Positions 3,261-45,699 of a stretch of 64,000 bases of DNA are shown piece by piece. The position numbers and the translations under genes were made by a program. Source of the DNA: Pristiophorus japonicus (Eukaryota); contig NC_091999.1 of NCBI RefSeq assembly GCF_044704955.1, forward strand, positions 10,726,001 to 10,790,000. Direction: 5' to 3'. Under the pieces are notes generated by a model. It saw only the letters and a list, made by a program, of their open reading frames with translations, made no database searches and was not told where the DNA came from. Within the stretch, counting starts at the first letter, position 1. The number at the start of each line of letters is the position of its first letter.

Positions 3261-4069
3261 CGAAAATAATTTCGGTATCTTAATCGATAAAAGAGAGAAA
3301 TATACGGTTGTCGCTAGAAAGGTTGGCGAGGTGCGTATGTGTGAACATTTCTCCCAGAGTACAGCGGGTCGTGTGTCATAGATAGTGGCTTTATCTCTGC
3401 CGGTGTGAACTGTGGGATAGCCGCAGCTCTCCATTGCCTGGACATCAACCAAGCAAACCCGGCAAAAGAAACATTTTTGCCGTGAGAAAAGCAATTCTTT
3501 ACACAGAAGCAGCTGATACTGTGCAATATCTACACGAGTTATTTTAATAGGTAAGTTCGATATGAGTCTCGAAAGAGGAGTTTAAAGGGTGTGAGGAGCG
3601 AGAAGGGAATTTCAGACTGGATGGACTTATTCACTCAATGAAACTTACCGAACCCGCTCTCAGTGGAAACAGGACAGCCAAATAAGATGAGACTAGAGTG
3701 GAGGACGGCCCCGGAAAGCGGGTGTGGGGGAAGAGGGATTTGTGCAAAGACATAATTTAATCCTCATCTGCACCTATTCCCCAACAATTCCTTCCACTCC
3801 CTATTTAAGAGTCGTTAATGTTTTCCTCCCTTAGACAACTGTCCTAATAAACCACAGGACACATCATGCCAGAACTCCAGCAGTTTAGAAGAAAAGGAGT
3901 GCCGCACCAGCAAAAAAGCAGGATGGTACTCAGGTCTGATTAGAAATTTGTGGAGATGTTCTCCTCCCCAGGAGGAGCCTCAGGAATCCGATGAGGCGGC
4001 AAAGGACACGCAGTGAAACTTCAGCGAAACAAGGTGCGAAGGTCTGAGAGACAATGGTGGGAAAGCAGA

Positions 4070-5365
4070 GACAGCGTCTAGAGTAATACAAACAGAGACA
4101 GGGTCCAGTGCATTAATTACTGAGACTGCGTCTAGTGCAATACAAACAAAGACAGGCTCTAGTGCAATATAAACAGAGACAGGGTCTCATGTAATATAAA
4201 CAGAGACAGCGTCTAGTGTAATATCAACAGAGACAGGGTCTAGTGTAATATAAACAGAGACAGGTTCTCGTGTAGTTGAAACAGAGCCAGGGTCTACTGC
4301 AGTAGTAACTGCGACTGGGTCTAGTGCAATACAAACAAAGATAGCGTCTAGTGTAATACAAACGGAGACAGGGCCCAGTGCATTAATTACTGAGACTGTG
4401 TCCAGTGCAATACAAACAAAGACAGGCTCTAGTGTAATATAAACAGAGACAGGGTCGAGTGTAACATAAACAGAGACAGGTCGACTATAATACAAACAGA
4501 GGCACGGTCTAGTGCATTAATAGCTGAGACAAGGTCCAGTGTAATATAAACAGAGATAGGGACTGGTGCAGCGATAACTGAGCAGAGCCTAGTGCAAAAT
4601 CAACAGAGACAGGGTCTAGTGAAATATAAACAGATACAGCGTCTAGTGTAATATAAATAGAGACAGGGTCTAATGTAATATAAACAGAGACAGGGTCTAG
4701 TGCATTAGTAACTGAGACTGGGTCTCGTGCAATACAAACAGAGACAGGGTCTAGTGTAATCTAAACAGTGACAGAGCTTGGCGTAATGTAAACAGAGATA
4801 GGGTCTGGTGCAGCAATAACTGAGCAGGGCCTAGTGCAACATAATCAGAGACAGGGTCTTGTGTAATATAAACAGTGTCAGGGCTTGGTGTAATGTAAAC
4901 ACAGACAGGGTCTGGTGCAGCAATAACTGAGCAGGGCCTAGTGCAACATAAACAGAGGGAGGGTCTAGTATAATATAAAAAGAGACAGGGCCCACTGTAA
5001 TATAAACAGAAACAGGGTCGCGTGTACTACAATCAGAGACAGGATCTAGTGCATTAATAACTGAGACTGCGTCTTTAGTGTAATATAAACAGAGATTGGG
5101 TCTGTTGCAGAAATAACTGAGGGGGGCCTTGTGGAACATAAAGAGCGACGCGGTCTAGTGTAATATCAACAGTGACAGGCTTTGGCGTAATGTAAACAGA
5201 GACACGGTCGAATGCTGTAATAACTGAGATAGGACCTGATTTATTATAAACAGAGCCAGGGCCTCGTGTAATATAAACGGAGACTTGGTCTAGTGTGACG
5301 TAAACAGATATAGGGTCTGGGGTAATATAAACTGTGACAGGGTCCAATGTACGACAAAGAGAGAC
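4070..5365. repeat. 27-bp minisatellite (GGGTCTAGTGTAATATAAACAGAGACA and variants), roughly 45-50 units
   Basis: Visible tandem periodicity; yields repetitive 9-aa spurious ORFs (TLDPVSVYI). Confidence 0.9.
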
Positions 5366-5724
5366 GTGGCAACTTCAACTTAAATCTTGGTGATTCCTTT
5401 GTTTATTTTTAATACCAAGACACAACTGATGAAAGAAGCTCCGTCAAAACAACATGAAAACGCACACATTCCAATTCTGTAGAACAGATGCAGATACAGG
5501 GGGTGTGGATCCGTCTCATGATTCCTACTTAATGACCAAACGTTTGAATCTTGCTGTGAATGCTGCCATTTAAAATATGTCACTGAGCTTTAGTGATATT
5601 TTATAAATTATAAATGATACTATCAATGGAGCACCTTGTTGTGTTGAAGCTAGAGATTTAGGCAAATTGGAACACGTCAGGGAGAGCGTACGGAATACAG
5701 TGACAGACACATACACAGCGTATT

Positions 5725-8000
5725 CACAGAATCATAAATTACGACATACAAGGGTAACCATTCGACCCCTCGTTTTGACAAATAGCGATCCTGGCTATTC
5801 CCAATTTCCGGCATTATGTACATTGCCCTGTAGGTCACGGCTCTTTCAGTGAACATCCAAGTATTTTAAAATTTGATGAGGGTTTCTGCCTCTACCACCC
5901 TTTCTGGCAGTGAATTCCAGATCCCCACCACCCTCTGGGTGAAATTAATTTTCCTCCTCTCCCCTCGAATCCTTCTACCAACCATTTTGATCCCATGCCC
6001 CCTGGTTAATGACCCTCTGCTAAGCGAAATAGATTCTTCCTATCTATTGTATCTCGGCCCCTCATAATTCTATACAGCTAAATTAAATTTCCCCTCTGCC
6101 TCCTCTGGTCGAAAGAAAACAACCCCGGCCTATCCAATCTATCCTCATAGCTAAAACATTTCCTGTCCTGGCAACATCCTTGTAAATCTCCTCTGTACGC
6201 ACTCGAGTGCCATCACCTCTTTCCTGTAATGTGGTGACCAGATCTGTACGCAGTACTCAAGCTATGAGCGAACTAGTTTTGTACACAGTTCGAGCATAGC
6301 TTCACTACTCTTTTATTCTTATGTTATTATGTTCTTATTCTATGCCTCGGCGAATAAAGGAAAGCATTCCATATGCCTTTTGAAGTAACTTATCGGCCTT
6401 TCCTGCAACCATTAAGGATCTGTGGACATACACCCCAGTAACTAGTGTGGTGCTGCAAGGATCAATGCTTGCACACCAAATATTGACAATCTCTATTAAC
6501 GACTTGGAAGAAGGGACTGAGTGTAACGTAGCCAAGTTTGCTGAGGATACAAATGTAGGAAGAAAAGCAAGGTGTCAGGCGGACACAAAAAATCTGCAAA
6601 AGGACATTGAGAGGGAAAGGTATTGGGCAAAAATTTGGCAGATGAAGTATAATGTTAGAATATGTGAGGTCAAGTACGTTGGCAGAAAAAAATCAAAGTG
6701 CAAGTTATTATTTAAGTGCAGAAAGATTGCAAAGTGCCGCAGTACAGCGGGACCTTGGGCTACTTGTGCATGAAACACAAAAGGATAGTATACAGGAACA
6801 GCAAGTAATCAGGAAGGCCAATGGTATCTTGGCCTTTATTGCAAAGGGTATGGGGTATAAAATTAGGGAAGTCTTACTACAGCTAGATAAGGCATTGCTA
6901 AGGTCACATCTGGAATATTACATGCAGTTTTGTTATCCATATTTACGAAAGGATATACATCTTCTGGTGGGAGTTCGGGGAAGGTTCACGAGGCGGATTC
7001 CGGGGATGAGGGGATTGACTTATGAGGAAAGGCTGAGTAGGTTGGGCCTCTACTCATTGGAATTCAGAAGATTGAGAGGTGATCTTATCGAAACGTATTC
7101 GATTATGAGGGGGCTTGACAAGGTGCATGCAGAGAGGATGTTTCCACGGGGGAGACCAGAACAACAGGGAACAATTTTAGAAGAAGTTGTCGCCCATTTA
7201 AAACAGAGACAAGGACACATTTCTTCTCTCAGGGGTTGTAAATCTGTGGAATTCGCTGCCTCAGAGAGCTGTGGAAGCTGGGAGGTTGAATAAGTTTAAG
7301 ACAGAAATAGTTTCTTAAACGATAAAGGAATAAGCGGTTATGGGGAGCGGTCGGGGAATTGGGGCTGAGTCCATGATGAGCCATGGTCTTATTGAATTGC
7401 GGAGCAGACTCGAGCGGCCATATGGCCAACTCTGGTTCCTATTTCTTATATTCTTATGTCCCTCCGTACCTCCACACCTCTCAGTATCCTCTATTTGTTA
7501 TGCGATCAATTGTCTTGTATCACCTTCTCAGTACCATGACCTCACACTTCTTCTGATTGCATTCCATGTTCCATTGTTCTGCTCAACTGACCAGTCCATC
7601 GATATGTTCCTATAGTCTAAAGCTTCCTTCTCACAAGGCCAATGTTTGTATTATCTGCAAACCTCTTTATCATGCACCCTACATTTAAGTATGAATTATT
7701 AATATATAATTACAGACAGCAAGTGATCGGGCACTGATACCCGAGGAGCCCCACTGGAAACACCCTTCCAAACGCAAAAACACTCGCCAACTATTACACT
7801 TTGCTTCCTGACACTGAGCCAATTTTTGATCGAATTTGACAGTCTCCGTTGGATCCCATGGGCTTCTACTTTTTTGTTCAGCCTGTCACGTGGGACCTTG
7901 TTCAAATCATACAGATGACATCAAACACATGGGTCCATCGACAATCCTTGTTACCTTCTCAAAAAATTCAATCAAATTAGTCAGACACGACTTTCCCTGA
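5725..8000. mobile_element. Nested CR1 LINE fragments (minus-strand copy interrupted by a plus-strand copy at ~6435-7458)
   Basis: RT motifs KFAEDT, HLEYYMQF, RGDLIETY; tail TTCTTATATTCTTATG at ~7443-7458. Confidence 0.85.
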
Positions 8001-8259
8001 ACATCGCCGAAACAAAGAGAGAAGTAGAGACACCGACAAAGTCAGAGACAGAAAGAGAACTCGGCAGATAAATTAATTGGTCTACAACTGATTGGTGCAC
8101 ACTATTGTCGGTTCTGAGAGTAGCAAATCCTGTCCCTAGGAAACGCCCCTCAGTCACCTAATCAGTGAAGTCTGCGCCTGATCGACGTTTAATCCTGAAT
8201 AAACGACGAGAATATTGAAAAAAGTCTGCTATTTTATGTCGAACTTTATACAATTTATC

Positions 8260-8692
8260 ATGTGCTCCCCATGTTTGTTCCTGATAATAATGTTCGTGCT
8301 GCCCGGTGAGATACGTTCAACTGGCCAGTTTGAATTCGGTTAGGTTATATTCACGCGCAGAAGTTTTGATACGTTCTCTGATTTGTTGCAGGAATCAATG
8401 GCGAAGATAAGGTGCTCCAGGATCCGCCTGAATTATCGGTGCAGGAAGGACAGAACATAATACTGAGCTGCAGTTACTCGAAATCTGGTTCAACTCTGTT
8501 CTGGTACATCCAGTATTCCGGAGAAGCTCCGAGATATTTACTGAAGAGATATAGCTCAGAAGACGGAGACACATCTCCAGGTTTACCAGACAGGTTCTCT
8601 GCTGATCTGAACACAATAAATAAAGCGGTTCCTTTAAATATCACAGGGTCGCTTGTCTCCGATGCTGCCGTGTATTTCTGTGCCATGCAGCC
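8260..8692 (+). CDS. TCR alpha/delta V segment, apparently functional (leader 8260-8305, V exon 8392-8692)
   Basis: Leader MCSPCLFLIIMFVLP-G|gtgag; acceptor ttgcag|; V exon GINGEDKVLQDPPELSV..LSCSYS..LFWYIQY..DRFSA..DAAVYFCAMQP; both Cys and the Trp present. Confidence 0.92.
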
Positions 8693-8732
8693 CACAGTGC
8701 TGCAGAGAGACAGCGGACCCCGGACAAAAACG
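8693..8732 (+). other. Recombination signal sequence CACAGTG-24bp-ACAAAAACG
   Basis: Heptamer 8693-8699, nonamer 8724-8732. Confidence 0.9.
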
Positions 8733-8753
8733 GATACTCAAAATATCAGTCAG

Positions 8754-8772
8754 TGCTCACCAGAGGGCGCTC
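8754..8772 (+). promoter_or_regulatory. RSS-associated CTCF-binding element
   Basis: TGCTCACCAGAGGGCGCTC vs CTCF core TGGCCACCAGGGGGCGCTA; 21 bp after the nonamer. Confidence 0.75.
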
Positions 8773-9969
8773 TTACACTGATAAACAGAAGCGAAAATTT
8801 GGACTCCACAGTGAAAATCACAGGGACCTTCTTAAAAGGGTGACAAAACACAACTCTGAACAAGAACAGGTGATATCTACTTGTAGAATTTTATTAATTG
8901 ATTTGATCTCGAGTGTTTACTAAAAATGTACTTGATACATGCATTTGGTTCGCATTAATTTACCCTTTATCTTTTGATGCTCTTTTGGTACGTGCCTCAG
9001 TTTACACATCTCCCCTGTTAGTTTCCAGGACCCAGTGTTCGCGGCCTGTAGACAATGTTTATTTGATCAGAATGTGTTGCTGGATCGGAGGCTTTTTATA
9101 CCCAATCAACAGATTTCACAAGGTCGTGACTGTGCTCTTTAAAACAACCCCAAGCACAGAATTCCCCAATGCCCAACGTTTTTCAGAAAGTCACTTCAAT
9201 TCTGGAATGTTTTCTGTCACCATTAACAATCGTGCAGCTTGCGGTTTGCAACAAACAGACAAGGGGATCTCCGCAGCTTCCGATTTGCAACACACAGACA
9301 AGGGGCTCGTTCTCACTCCCTGTCTCAACAATTTTAACCATTCCCCTCTTAAGTCACTGACTGTGGCCCAGTTCAGGGTGTTTCCATTCAGTGCTAACCA
9401 ACTCTCCACCTACCGGCCTGACAGCACCACTTGGGACACATGGAAGTGAGATGAGAGCTTCCTGAGACATGACAGCAAATTATTGACGGTGGGGATTAGA
9501 ACGGCTGTCTCCAAACATCCAAAACACATTTTAGAGAGTGGAGAGCGTCAATTTGGCTACCCTGCATCTGGCTTACGTGGAGAGTTTCTGACAAATAATT
9601 GTAGACCAAACACATTTCATATTTTTTCTCTCTTCCGCAGTGCAGAGATCTTGAGGGTCGTAGGGCTGGAGGAGGGCCCAGAGATAGAGAGGAGCGGGGA
9701 TTTGCAAAAATGAATGTAAATTTTAATGACGAGGCTTTGTCGGACTAGGAGCCAATGTAGGTCAGCGATCACAGATGTGATGGGTGATGGAACTTGGCAC
9801 GAGTTTTGATACGGGCAGCAGAGTTTTGGATGAGCTAAAGTTTACTGCGTGTGCACGCGGGGAGGCTGGCCAGTAGGGCACTGGAATAGACGAGTTCAGA
9901 GGTAGCAAACGCATGGATGGGGTTTGACTGTAAGATAAGCTGAAGTAAGGACGGAGTGAAAATGCCCAG

Positions 9970-21813: not shown

Positions 21814-21929
21814 TCAGCGAGTATTAGCAGCTCCATTACTTCATCGTTGTTGTGTTTATCTGTGGATTTAGTTTGATCCCAAAGTCACGGAGACCAAAGA
21901 CTGTCAGGTTGCTCGAGCATCGAGTTGTA

Positions 21930-22255
21930 GTCGTGTACTTCTCTTTGTCCAAATCAGCAGAGAAGCGGTGTGGGAAATCTGGAGAACTTTCTCGGTTCTT
22001 ACAAGCGATATTGAAGTACGAATAGAGAGAGGAAAAACGATCCGAAATGGAGATTCAGTATAACGGTCTGATCTTCCAGAACCGTTAATTCAGACGAATA
22101 AAGGGACACTGGGTCTGCGCTACTCATTCCTGAATCAAAATTTAGAATATCTTAAAAGTCTGCGACTAAATATCACCCATGAAGCACATGCGAATCATTT
22201 AAGCAAAGACACACCGGGCAGGATGACCATTATCATCAGTAAGTAATATGGGAGC
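21930..22255 (-). pseudogene. Decayed, truncated TCR V (family of 8260)
   Basis: Leader relic ..MIMVILP-G|gtgtgt; exon start GMSSADPVS..ELTVLEDQTVIL, SPDFPHRFSADLDK. Confidence 0.75.
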
Positions 22256-22485
22256 AGAAGATATCTGGTTTAGAGTTCGACAGAACATAGCAACGTTTTG
22301 ATGCTATGTTGATCCTTATCATTTGGAATTAAAGGGTAAACTGAACCAGGGGCAGGCTTCACATATTTGCAGACTGAGGGGCGGTTTCCAGGGTCAGTGT
22401 TATAAATCACATAGCGCTCTGTTAACGGCACAGGTGGTGAGCGATTAGCTCCACCCCAACCCGCACCCCCACCCCGGACCGGACA

Positions 22486-22524
22486 GGTTTCTGTACGTTC
22501 TCTGCTGATCTTTGCCGCACTGTG
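22486..22524 (-). other. Orphan near-consensus 23-RSS CACAGTG-23-ACAGAAACC with no V exon attached
   Basis: Paralogous to the RSS at 38239-38277, but the upstream flank is unrelated to a V. Confidence 0.8.
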
Positions 22525-23891
22525 TAACCGTACGACATGGGCTTTATTCTATCTTCATCAAAAACCCCTTTAAATACAGTTATATTTCCCAGTGCCACAG
22601 GTTGCACTGAGTAAATTGAGCAACTTTCCGATAGGAATATCTAACCGATGATGAGGGAGTATGCCCTCCAATTGTGCTGCTGGTAAACGGGACCGAAGGA
22701 ATTAATTGACTGACAGCGTTTTAATTCCGCCCCTGCTTCAGCTCATAGTCCGATTAAACCCTCATCCATGCCTTTGATACCTCTAAGCTAGACTATTCCA
22801 TGCTCCACTGACCGGCCTCCCAGGGTGCACCCACCGTAAACGTTAGCTCATCCAAAGCTCTGCTGCCTGTATCATAACTCGTGCCAAGTTCTGTTGAGCC
22901 ATCACGTCTGTGCTCGCTGACCTACATTGGCTCCCAGTCCGACAACGCCTCGTGTTTAAAATTTACATTCATGTTTGAAAATCTCCACATTGTCTCGCTC
23001 CTCTCTATTTCTGGGCCCTCCTCCAGCGCTCCCAGCCTCAAGATCTCTGCACTGTGGAAGAGAGAAACAAGATGAAATATGTTTGGTCGACAATTATGTC
23101 AGAAAGGCTCCACATAAGCCCGATGCTGAGTAGCCAAATTGAAGTTGTATGCACTCTAAAAGAATTTTTGGATGTTTGGAGTCATACGTTCTCATCCCCA
23201 CCCTCAATAATCTTCTATCATGTCTCAGCATGCTCTCACCGCACTTCCTTGTGTCCTCAGTCGTGCTCTGAGGCCGGTAGGTGGGGAGCTGGCTACCAGT
23301 GAATAATAACACACTGAGCTGTGCCACAGTCTGTGCCCTAAGAAGGGAATGGTTAAAATTTTAGAGACAGGGAGTGGGAACGAGTCGCTTGGCTGTGTGT
23401 TGCAAACCGGAAGCTGCGGGATTGTTAATGGTGACAGGAAAGATTCCAGAATTAAGAGACTTCCTGAAGGACGTTGGAGATTGGGAGAACTCTGTGCTTG
23501 GGGCTTGTATGGAAGAGGGCAGTAACGACTTTGTGAAATCTGTTGATTGTGTATAAACAGACTCCGACCCAGCAACATACTCTGATCAAATAAAGTCTGT
23601 GTACAGGCCACAATCACAGGGTCCTGGAAACTAACAGAGGAGATGTATAAACAGATGCACAATACTGGTGGTTGGTTCTGAAAGAGCATCAAATGATAAA
23701 GTGTAAATTAAGGCGACAGAAGTGGATTTATAAGTTAATTTTAGTACAAATACGAGTTTAAATCACTTAATAAAATTCTACAAGTGGACCTCACCCCTTC
23801 TTGTTCAGAGTTGTGCTTTGGCACCCTTTTAAGAAGGTCCCTATGACTCTCACTTTGGAGGTTAAGTTTTCACTTCTGTTTATCAGTGTGA

Positions 23892-38238: not shown

Positions 38239-38936
38239 GTTTTTTTTACTGTCTCTGCCGATCTTTGCTGCACTGTGTCATCACTGCACAGAAATAGGTG
38301 GCGGCGTCTGTTGCTCATGCGTCACAAGCATTCAGTACACTGCGCTTCTCTGCTGAACTGAACCGAGCCTTGATCCTGCTCTGATCGCTGGTATCAGATG
38401 CCACGTGCTGCATGGATCGCCTCGGGTATTGTCTGTACCATTGCAGGATCGGTCCTGCTACTATCATGATGCAGGTCAACGATGCAGTTTCTCCCTCGTT
38501 TAAAACCACTGACTTTGGAAAATGCGATACGTCTTCTCTACCTGTGGCACCTAAGAGAGGTATGTAGATATTAATATGATATAAAATAACATCATGCGAT
38601 ATAATATATCATATCAGAAGTAGATATAATATAATAGAATATGCATTGAATTATCATGTCATATAAGTAATGCAATGTAAAAATATAGTATAATTTTATA
38701 ACGTAATAAAGTAGAATAGAACATAATATAAACTAATACAATATAGCATAATACAGCATAATATAATACAACATAATAAAATACAAAATAACATAACATA
38801 AAATAATAATATATAAACAATAATACATACATTTAAAATGTAAAATATTTCCAACAGATGGATTGTGACCACACAGGCAGGAAGGGGAGAGTAAGACATT
38901 CGGGAAGATCATCACGAAAGTAAAGTCCAGCTTCAT
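38239..38936 (-). pseudogene. TCR V with a single in-frame TGA and a 23-RSS
   Basis: Exon 38550-38278: GATGREDVSHFPKSVVLNEGETASLTC..LQWYRQYP..ACDA*ATDAATYFCAVM; CACAGTG-23-AAAAAAAAC; probable leader ~38870-38936; AT-rich microsatellite intron. Confidence 0.85.
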
Positions 38937-43309: not shown

Positions 43310-43845
43310 GCTTAACTTACCCCGTGCTGTGCTTGCCCTGGGAGTCTTTATTTCGATAGTACAGAGGGTGGTGGGCGGGGGACGGGGGGGAATGGTGGGG
43401 AGTGGTTACTGTGTATCTAACCCGTGCTGTACATGCCCTGGGAGTGTTTGATGGGACAGTGTAGAGGCAGGTTTACTCTATATCTAACACGGGCTGTACC
43501 TGCCCGGGGAGTGTTTGAAGGGACAGTGTTGAGGGAGATTTATCTGAATCAAAAGCCTGCTGTACCTGCCCTGCGAGTATTTGATGACAGAGTGCAGAGG
43601 GAACTTTACTGTGCATCTAACTCGTGCTTTACCTGTCCCGGGAGTTTTTGATCGGACAGTGTAGAGAGAGCTCCATTCTGTATGTAACTTGTGCTTCACC
43701 TGCCCTGGGAGTGTTTGAGTGGCCAATGAAGTGGGAGCTTTACTCTGTATCTAATCTGTGCTGTACCTGTCCTGGGAGTGTTTGATGGGACAGTGTAAAT
43801 TGAGCGTTACTATCTATCTAACCCATGTTGTTCCTGTGTGGGATT
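43310..43845. repeat. ~67-bp minisatellite (CTGTACCTGCCCTGGGAGTGTTTGATGGGACAGTGTAGAGGGAGCTTTACTCTGTATCTAACCCGTG)
   Basis: About 7 tandem units; resembles a repeat common in shark genomes. Confidence 0.85.
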
Positions 43846-44144
43846 GTTTTATATAAAATGTTGATGAACTTGATGAGGAATTTATGTTGATTTTGTTTTG
43901 ATTCAACTTTCAAATTAATCGTCAAGACCGAAACATTAATCACCTTTGATTCATGCAGTTACTGTGCTTGGTCTCCGTATTGGATGATTAGGAATGTCGA
44001 ATCACTTCCATTTTTACGAAATTAACATTTCATAGTCATCAATAGTGATATTATTGACGTGAAGTCTATCTAGTTTATGCAAATGAACGCGTATTTGTGT
44101 TGGTGACCTGAGCACAGTAAATCACTAAAACATGACATTTCAGA

Positions 44145-44485: not shown

Positions 44486-44614
44486 AGGTGTTAGACAGCT
44501 GGACAAGAGAATGAAAGTGAACCCGCAATGTTTCTCTATTTCATGGTCCAATGTCACTGCGAGGTCCGATGGGGGAGGGTAGCAATTCTTCAATCCAACA
44601 GACAGTTGTGTCGA

Positions 44615-44945
44615 TCTTACACTAGGCCCTGTATCAGCTTTTACTGCACAAGACATGTATCTATTTATATTACACAAATCCCTGTCTCAGTTGTTCCTCT
44701 GCTAGACCATGTTTCTATTTATATTACATTAGATCCTGTCGCTGTTTATATGACACGAGGCCATGTCTCTGTTTATATTCCACTGACAGTGTCTCAGTTA
44801 TTACTGTACACGACTACGTCTCTCTTTATATTACATTGGATCCTGTCGCTGTTTATATTACGCCAGACCCTATATCTGTTCACATCACATTGGACCAAGT
44901 CTCTATTTATATTACACGAGGCCCTATCTCTGTTGATATTGAAAT
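44615..44945. repeat. Inverted partial copy of the 27-bp minisatellite
   Basis: TGTCTCTGTTTATATTACAC.. units. Confidence 0.8.
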
Positions 44946-45699
44946 AGGTCCTACACCTCACCAACTTTTCCAGCGACAACTGTATATTTTTCGCTTTTAG
45001 CGATTAAGATACTGAAATTATGTTCGTGTAAATTGACATGTAAATTTCAATAGAGCCATTTTATGTAAATGAACGGAAGCCATTCACAACGTGTTATGTC
45101 ACACAAACATGGCGGACTGTACGTCACAAAATGTTGCCCGCTGGTGTGCCCAGCATTGGATGACGCCACAATCCTTTTCCACGTTACAGCACCATGATTG
45201 GCTGTTTCTCCCATTGATTCAGGGTAAGGGGTCACGGGCCGTTTGTTGCAGAGCATAGAGTCCCATTTAGTCAGGTCTGTGACCCCTGACGAAGGTCTGT
45301 GACCACGGGATATCAGCTCTTCAAAGTGCCTAGCGCCGCCCGAGTTGTTTCTGTTAGATTTGATACTTGATGGGAATTTGAATAAAATAGGAATGGGAAG
45401 AAAATTAAATTTAATTCTTTAAGTATTCCATCATTCAGTATGTTGCTTAACAGCAAATATTCATATTGGCTAATAATCGACATGTGAAGTAGGATCATTT
45501 ATCTAAAGTCGAACATGTTATTGTAAATGTAATTTTGAAAATGGAGACAATATTGATTTTATTTATTTCTTGATCCCAGCATGATAAACAGTAAGAATAT
45601 AGCAGCAGGTAATTCATCCGCTCAAGCCTTTCCATCATTCTAAAAATCTACTGCCAATTTCTGGCAGCAAACAGAAATAAATTCCATTGCCTCTTACAG

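What the first reader, a model, noticed from the sequence alone, without database searches (positions are those of the whole stretch)
22486..22730. Orphan 23-RSS cut off at the heptamer beside an inversion breakpoint: candidate germ-line RAG scar
Seen: minus-strand CACAGTG-23-ACAGAAACC is paralogous to the RSS of the V at 38239-38550 as part of a long duplicated block. Homology ends within 1-2 nt of the heptamer and the V body is replaced by unrelated DNA. An oppositely oriented nonamer-like TCAAAAACC lies 33 nt away (22558-22566), and the inverted duplicate of 5375-9960 starts about 200 bp further on. Established: RAG cuts exactly at the heptamer border, and sharks carry germline-joined Ig genes attributed to RAG activity in germ cells. 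Inference: a fossil signal-end joint that may have driven the inversion. No convincing partner heptamer is visible, so it is not a clean signal joint.
Basis: partly seen in the sequence, partly recalled or inferred. Interest (0 to 1): 0.7.

Follow-up and report, generated by a model that had tools for sequence, protein, structure and literature searches.

The report
Fused remnant of two TCR genes
This lone recombination signal is what is left where the start of one shark-type T-cell-receptor V gene was fused to the end of another and then copied eight times; the fusion was likely an ordinary old deletion, and a cut by the RAG enzyme in germ cells is possible but less likely.

Summary
The orphan 23-RSS (22524→22486) is real. 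The DNA replacing the V body is not unrelated: it is the promoter, 5'UTR and first four leader codons (MSYG) of a second V family (A). Two bases follow, then the RSS and 3' flank of family B. The junction exists in 8 copies, 84.5–96.2% identical and forming one clade, so it is an old germ-line event. The two bases are GA in 6 of 8 copies, as at the B coding end (7 of 8), so the break likely lay 2 nt inside B's coding flank, which a RAG signal end would not keep. The A leader has CAC at the break (13 of 14), but it scores below the median random CAC. The chance that at least one of 33 lineage breakpoints falls this near a heptamer is 0.50. The 'partner nonamer' occurs in 2 of 8 copies, at chance frequency. 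The inversion breakpoint is ~193 nt away, arose in the other copy and has no RSS. RAG origin stays open (~0.25): the locus holds a germ-line V–D-joined NARTCR-like cassette. The scan has unchecked notes on germ-line-joined Ig genes in this genome, none on this junction.

The parts
22486..22524 (-). Orphan 23-RSS of V family B lineage (heptamer 22524-22518, nonamer 22494-22486); near-consensus in this copy and its sister, decayed in the other 6 of 8
22525..22526 (-). Two junction bases (TA here; GA in 6 of 8 copies, likely ancestral), likely the last 2 nt of the B coding end
22527..22538 (-). First four codons (Met-Ser-Tyr-Gly) of the leader exon of V family A; ATG at 22538-22536
22539..22724 (-). 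5'UTR and proximal promoter region of V family A (63-77% identical to A members)
22558..22566 (+).
22716..22718 (.). Position matching the inversion junction of the 5-13 kb paralogue; this copy is the ancestral, unbroken side
22725..23056 (+). High-copy repeat fragment, truncated at both ends (L2-type LINE by recalled motif; the name comes from no call)
21870..22485 (-). 3' flank of the B-lineage RSS, including a decayed fragment of a further V pseudogene (22055-22397); closest to lineage C copies that lost V and heptamer
38239..38550 (-). Family B V pseudogene with RSS (comparison paralogue; its coding end ends in GA)

Best explanation
The orphan RSS is the surviving 3' end of a chimeric V pseudogene, in which the promoter and first four leader codons of a family-A TCR V gene are joined to the RSS and flank of a family-B V gene, likely by an ordinary (non-RAG) germ-line deletion that broke B two bases before its heptamer. 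Shown: the two parental parts, the junction, and one origin followed by duplication into 8 copies across about 1 Mb of a TCR-alpha V array. Inferred: A lay upstream of B in the same orientation; one deletion, repaired by end joining or a replication template switch with little microhomology, removed both V bodies; the copies then decayed neutrally. The window copy still has a promoter and a near-consensus RSS facing about 96 12-RSS J segments in deletional orientation. It would therefore be able to rearrange non-productively in T cells (untested).
For: The left side matches family A up to leader codon 4. The right side groups with lineage C and family B. GA at -2/-1 is in 6 of 8 copies and in two of the three basal branches; it matches 7 of 8 B coding ends, so this model needs no extra mutation or insertion. 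Lee 2000 reports little evidence of TdT activity in shark germ-line joints, so GA is unlikely to be N addition. The A-leader CAC is a poor cryptic RSS: median 23rd percentile (12-RSS model) and 30th (23-RSS model) of all CAC sites in the locus; true RSSs score at least 12.5, these at most -5.7. The array is full of truncations: 33 hand-counted lineage breakpoints within V exon..RSS give P=0.50 that one falls within 3 nt of a heptamer. The RSS is not conserved across copies: 5 of 9 nonamer and 2 of 7 heptamer columns vary. No reciprocal product was found in 1.44 Mb.
Against: The A-side break falls exactly before a CAC (13 of 14 A genes); a random site does so 1.6% of the time, or 4.6% within 0-2 nt. 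3 of 33 breakpoints lie within 3 nt of a heptamer against 0.69 expected (P=0.031; 0.14 without the orphan). Germ-line RAG activity is likely in this same locus: 1 of 11 NARTCR-like cassettes is V-D joined with both RSSs gone. The direct parents are extinct in this genome, so their exact ends are inferred from paralogues 63-79% identical. No surviving A-then-B tandem was found.
Confidence: 0.7

Rival explanations
1. Germ-line RAG hybrid joint. RAG cut B at its heptamer and A at the bare CAC of leader codon 5 (same orientation). The A surrogate coding end was joined to the B signal end with two added bases, directly or through a two-step route via a fused RSS.
For: The A break is flush with a conserved CAC and the heptamer is intact. 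Head-to-tail hybrid joints and RSS/cryptic-RSS deletions occur in mouse B cells (PMC5339680). 23RSS signal ends joined to upstream surrogate coding ends occur in mouse Tcrd (PMC4995090). A germ-line hybrid joint is cited for horned shark IgH (PMC2193153). A germ-line V-D join lies in this locus.
Against: It needs two non-templated bases that equal B's own coding end (1 in 16) where TdT activity is reported low. GA is not a P addition of the A end. The CAC has no nonamer at 12 or 23 nt and scores below the median. Off-target joining mostly uses convergent CACs, and the upstream class is attributed to prior RSS fusions.
Confidence: 0.13
2. Germ-line RAG signal joint. B's RSS was joined head-to-head, with one base between, to a cryptic heptamer CACCGTA on the opposite strand of the A leader.
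For: In 6 of 8 copies a CAC starts 1 nt from the heptamer on the + strand. It scores at the 80th-96th percentile of CAC sites under the 23-RSS model. RSS/cryptic-RSS signal joints that delete V-kappa DNA are documented.
Against: That CAC exists only because of the G at -2, and all 14 A genes have C there. It needs a private C-to-G change plus a 1-nt insertion equal to B's last base. The best nonamer match sits at a 25-nt spacer, and the pair would be 23/23-type. Scores of at most 5.4 are far below true RSSs (at least 12.6).
Confidence: 0.06
3. A single RAG cut at B's heptamer was joined to a non-RAG break in the A leader through the shared AC, followed by a C-to-G change in the stem lineage.
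For: AC is shared across the heptamer border by A and B. The stem branch of the orphan clade is 0.14 changes per site.
Against: It needs a specific transversion that recreates B's base. Nothing in the data favours it over direct inheritance of GA.
Confidence: 0.06
4. The junction drove the neighbouring inversion.
For: Only proximity, about 193 nt.
Against: The inversion junction is derived in the other copy, has microhomology with a CR1-type repeat and has no RSS. All 8 orphan copies keep the unbroken A promoter across that point.
Confidence: 0.02
5. Assembly or somatic artefact.
For: None found.
Against: 8 copies, 84.5-96.2% identical, with a resolved tree.
Confidence: 0.01

Closest known systems
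Germ-line-joined NS4 Ig light-chain genes of nurse shark (Lee et al. 2000, PMC2193156; passages read)
   Same: Inherited junction at an RSS border in a shark antigen-receptor locus.
   Different: Those are 12/23 coding joints with both RSSs excised. Here the RSS is kept, the coding body is lost, the partner is a V leader without an RSS, and 2 nt of coding flank appear retained.
Germ-line hybrid joint in horned-shark IgH (as described in Lewis and Wu 2000, PMC2193153; parts 1-2 of 3 read; the original Kokubu 1988 paper not seen)
   Same: An RSS placed next to a new partner sequence in the germ line.
   Different: That event is between bona fide D-segment RSSs and is an inversion. Here it would be a deletion using a bare CAC in a TCR V array.
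Somatic RSS/cryptic-RSS deletions at mouse Igk and Tcrd (PMC5339680, passages and section 8; PMC4995090, passages)
   Same: A signal end joined to a neighbour or to a CAC-defined surrogate coding end, deleting V DNA.
   Different: Somatic, in lymphocytes, mostly at convergent CACs, and without retained coding bases on the signal end.
deltaRec and kappa-deleting element (search listing only; mechanism recalled)
   Same: A non-coding element with an RSS upstream of the J segments that could delete intervening DNA without making a receptor.
   Different: No sign of conservation: the RSS is decayed in 6 of 8 copies. No rearrangement or transcript evidence.
Truncated or chimeric V pseudogene relics of tandem V arrays (general knowledge; about 30 other lineage breakpoints here)
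   Same: A V body lost by deletion, with the remnant amplified by segmental duplication.
   Different: Both ends fall at RAG-suggestive positions, and the two halves come from different V families.

Membership tests
RAG signal joint | Two heptamers fused head to head | tested here: not met
   The window copy has AACCGTA. In 6 of 8 copies a CAC lies 1 nt away, but it depends on a G absent from 14 of 14 A genes.
RAG signal joint | 12/23 pair with a nonamer at the right spacing | tested here: not met
   No 12-spaced nonamer; best nonamer at 25 nt; score at most 5.4 versus at least 12.5 for true RSSs.
RAG hybrid joint | Signal end intact and flush, with no coding bases carried along | tested here: inconclusive
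   The heptamer is intact, but the 2 adjacent bases equal B's coding end (GA in 7 of 8 B genes and 6 of 8 copies). They could be N bases at 1 in 16.
RAG hybrid joint | Partner end is the coding end of an RSS or cryptic RSS in the same orientation | tested here: inconclusive
   The break is flush with CAC in 13 of 14 A leaders, but the site scores at the median 23rd/30th percentile of random CACs.
RAG hybrid joint | RAG cleaves the partner site | not testable with these tools
   Needs a cleavage or plasmid recombination assay.
RAG transposition of a signal end | 3-5 bp target-site duplication and a second RSS-terminated end | tested here: not met
   No second end or reciprocal junction in 1.44 Mb; the rest of the A gene is absent. 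A later loss cannot be excluded.
Germ-line (inherited) rearrangement | Junction shared by diverged paralogous copies | tested here: met
   8 copies, 84.5-96.2% identical, one clade 98/97.
TCR alpha/delta V array of a cartilaginous fish | V-set exons with 23-RSS, a 12-RSS J array and a C exon; NARTCR-like cassettes | tested here: met
   Pfam V-set. Closest named proteins are from Callorhinchus (47-48%). PDB hits include TCR delta and alpha V. 96 J-linked 12-RSSs and a C-type exon at C23 9.58-9.68 Mb. 11 V-D-J cassettes (the NARTCR label is recalled). The delta C region was not fetched.
deltaRec-like deleting element | Conserved RSS that rearranges to J in T cells | tested here: not met
   RSS decayed in 6 of 8 copies. 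Rearrangement was not testable.

The most novel reading that the evidence does not exclude
An ancient germ-line RAG off-target event, a hybrid or cryptic signal joint between a V 23-RSS and a bare CAC in another V's leader, deleted two TCR V genes and was fixed and amplified eightfold. Together with a germ-line V-D-joined NARTCR-like cassette and two more heptamer-flush rearrangements in the same locus, RAG would have been remodelling a shark TCR locus, not only Ig clusters, in germ cells.
Probability: 0.25. Interest if true: 0.62.

Novelty: new member of a known kind. Interest (0 to 1): 0.3.

Why it matters
If ordinary, it is one of about 30 truncation lineages in a fast-turning V array, and it shows that a break near a heptamer is weak evidence for RAG. 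If RAG-made, it would be a fossil of off-target RAG cutting in germ cells at a TCR locus. That would extend germ-line RAG activity from canonical Ig joins to cryptic sites and bear on Lewis and Wu's proposal that RAG reshaped receptor loci. My searches found no report of a germ-line RAG junction in a shark TCR locus, but most subscription papers on shark TCR are outside that library. The stronger lead is the V-D-joined NARTCR-like cassette outside the window.

Tried and rejected
Divergent V FR3 as the flank: rejected, because it aligns to the A promoter and leader.

TE insertion with target-site duplication at the junction: rejected, because X has only 9 matches genome-wide and the repeat starts at about 22725.

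J-side signal joint from an inversional V-J event: rejected, because X matches a V promoter. X was not separately aligned to the J region; the genome search gave no hit there.

Reciprocal junction: a motif search over 1.44 Mb found none.

Surviving A-then-B tandem: I compared the coordinates of A, B and C copies and found none adjacent in the needed order.

Sequencing runs: no RNA holder listed. The DNA holders are one sample, possibly the assembly source. Their contigs cover 22406-22532 and 22503-22785 without differences, but none has 31 nt on both sides of the junction. I did not count them as support.

Protein homologue search (longer proteins only) gave 3 hits and no full-length shark TCR.

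The automated census missed the orphan because of a 27-nt flank indel; one search placed it at -1; I entered -2 by hand. Rows dropped before the count of 33: families seeded by repeat-containing queries (16, 18, 19, 21), diffuse decay ends and duplicate ends in families 0, 1, 7, 9, 14 and 24, and the NARTCR-like V-D join, which is treated separately.

The promoter tree used 2 of about 20 fragment copies and a shortened L048. The flank tree used 3 of 9 B members.

The region C23 9.695-9.82 Mb, the likely delta D-J-C, was not obtained. No supplements were read.

Full report
Setting. The window is G000:C23:10726001-10790000, inside a large array of V exons with 23- or 24-spacer RSSs in both orientations. 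A C-type exon lies at C23 9.58 Mb on the minus strand, with 96 J-linked 12-RSSs just above it. Eleven V-D-J cassettes of NARTCR type (label recalled) are scattered among the V genes. Family A is V-set, its nearest named proteins are from Callorhinchus, and its PDB hits include TCR delta and alpha V domains. I read this as the TCR alpha/delta locus of a cartilaginous fish; linkage of NARTCR with that locus is described in PMC12227049 (passages).

Observation. The RSS at 22524-22486 is real and well above chance: 6 matches in the window against 0.10 expected. It aligns with the RSS and flank of the V at 38239-38550 up to 22525-22526. The whole junction occurs in 8 places between C23 10.25 and 11.25 Mb, all in one orientation. 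The copies are 84.5-96.2% identical and form one clade (98/97), sister to lineage C, which lost V and heptamer to a repeat. The junction is therefore one old inherited event, not a somatic or assembly artefact.

What replaced the V body. The 190 bp beyond the heptamer (X) have one non-paralogous genomic match, at C23 5.50 Mb, beginning at the junction. That site is the promoter and leader of another V gene, with leader MSYGHLVILCLVF. A search with that gene returned 14 family-A genes and about 20 promoter-plus-leader fragments. X aligns to them from 22724 through the first four leader codons and forms its own lineage within the family. The structure is thus A promoter and four codons, two bases, then the B RSS and flank.

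The two junction bases. They are GA in 6 of 8 copies and TA in the window and its sister. With outgroups, G is found in two of three basal branches, so GA is likely ancestral. B coding ends finish in GA in 7 of 8 members, and also in the outlying member L024. All 14 A genes have C at the first of these positions. The reading that needs no extra step is that B supplied GA, so B broke 2 nt inside its coding flank. RAG produces a blunt signal end at the heptamer (PMC5339680), which would carry no coding bases. N addition could mimic GA at 1 in 16, but Lee et al. saw little evidence of TdT activity in shark germ-line joints.

For RAG. The A side stops exactly before CAC in 13 of 14 A genes, which happens at 1.6% of random sites. 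That is hybrid-joint geometry. It has precedent in mouse lymphocytes and, between real RSSs, in the horned-shark germ line. In 6 of 8 copies a head-to-head CAC also appears 1 nt from the heptamer, at the 80th-96th percentile of CAC sites. One of 11 NARTCR-like cassettes (C23:9973452) has V fused to D, with both RSSs and about 370 bp gone and both ends trimmed. That is the form of a germ-line coding joint in this same locus, although this cassette is also the most diverged (78%). Two other boundaries sit at heptamers: a tandem array of a 62-bp RSS-containing unit and a deletion ending at +1 through ACGG microhomology.

Against RAG. Scored with models trained on 96 12-RSSs and 101 23-RSSs of this locus, the A-leader CAC ranks at the median 23rd and 30th percentile of about 46,000 CAC sites, with no nonamer. 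The head-to-head CAC exists only because of the G that A genes lack, and its best nonamer is 25 nt away. Of 33 hand-counted lineage breakpoints in the V-exon-to-RSS interval over 1.44 Mb, 0.69 are expected within 3 nt of a heptamer. P is 0.50 for at least one, 0.031 for the three seen, and 0.14 once the ascertained orphan is removed (dropped rows are listed under Tried and rejected). Off-target RAG joining mostly uses convergent CACs. Each RAG reading needs one unsupported extra step. My weighting, about 0.7 ordinary and about 0.25 RAG in total, is a judgement from these numbers and was not computed in a call.

The inversion. The inverted paralogue (window 5-13 kb type, 4 copies aligned) shares sequence up to about 22716-22718. 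It then continues into a CR1-type repeat matching window 30404 onward, with about 4 nt of microhomology. In the orphan copies the A promoter runs unbroken across that point, and the repeat is unbroken across 30404. The inversion is thus derived in the other copy, lies about 193 nt from the heptamer and shows no RSS. The repeat names L2 and CR1 are recalled from protein motifs seen; the high copy number of the L2-type piece is shown.

How it works now. The element appears to be decaying: 5 of 9 nonamer columns and 2 of 7 heptamer columns vary, and only the window copy and its sister keep a strong RSS. That RSS faces the J array in deletional orientation behind a V promoter. It would be able to rearrange non-productively, in the manner of deltaRec (recalled; search listing only). 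This is untested.

Literature seen: PMC2193153 parts 1-2 of 3; passages of PMC2193156, PMC12227049, PMC4995090 and PMC7768089; passages and section 8 of PMC5339680. The rest were search listings only. No supplements were read. Searches found no germ-line RAG junction reported for a shark TCR locus, within a library that lacks most subscription papers. Earlier scan notes report germ-line-joined Ig genes elsewhere in this genome; I did not check them. There were none near this place or with these words.

Verdict. The feature is real and germ-line, and it is now anatomically resolved as a two-family V fusion. It is most likely an ordinary deletion. The inversion link is refuted, and a RAG origin remains a minority possibility. 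Interest 0.3.

Noticed in passing
G000:C23:9973452 (minus; L175): NARTCR-like cassette with V fused directly to D and its 3' 12-RSS. The V 3' RSS, the D 5' RSS and about 370 bp are missing, V is trimmed by about 10 nt and D by about 4 nt. 1 of 11 cassettes. Candidate germ-line V-D coding joint in a TCR locus. A search for 'NARTCR' plus 'germline-joined' gave 1 paper, where the phrase refers to ratfish IgM.
   Followed up: partly
G000:C23:10396644-, 10495839+, 10846928-, 11052355+ (related copies near 9.97 and 10.11 Mb): One V family is followed by a tandem array of a ~62-bp unit (23-RSS plus ~23 bp) whose boundary is at or within 3 nt of the heptamer. Several copies are perfect RSSs with no V in front.
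   Followed up: partly
G000:C23:10651578-10652058 (minus): Young V pseudogene (93-95% to paralogues) with a deletion from about -44 to heptamer +1 through ACGG microhomology; could be slippage or an open-and-shut RAG lesion.
   Followed up: partly
G000:C23:10245378-10245421 and 10245749-10245793: 44-bp inverted copy (97.7%) of a V end plus heptamer plus 21 nt of spacer at the start of the neighbouring V; ends at -16/+28, likely a template switch.
   Followed up: no
C23 17-64 Mb, C3770, C1724, C3501 (L063, L065-L067): About 20 near-identical fragments of the family-A promoter and leader, cut at the leader end by a repeat in the 4 examined, dispersed far from the TCR locus.
   Followed up: no
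G000:C23:5500136-5500620 and about 5.516-5.522 Mb: A family-A V pseudogene and two further RSS-like sites (one 12-spaced) about 4 Mb from the C exon, on the opposite side from the main V array.
   Followed up: no
window 8693-8732 and many paralogues: Two large V families carry 24-nt spacers in many copies.
   Followed up: no
G000:C23:11189028 and 11189455: Tandem duplication of the D segment region in one NARTCR-like cassette.
   Followed up: no
window 4063-5365, 44610-44950, 43406-43852: Minisatellite arrays; the 4-5 kb array abuts the left end of the inverted block.
   Followed up: no
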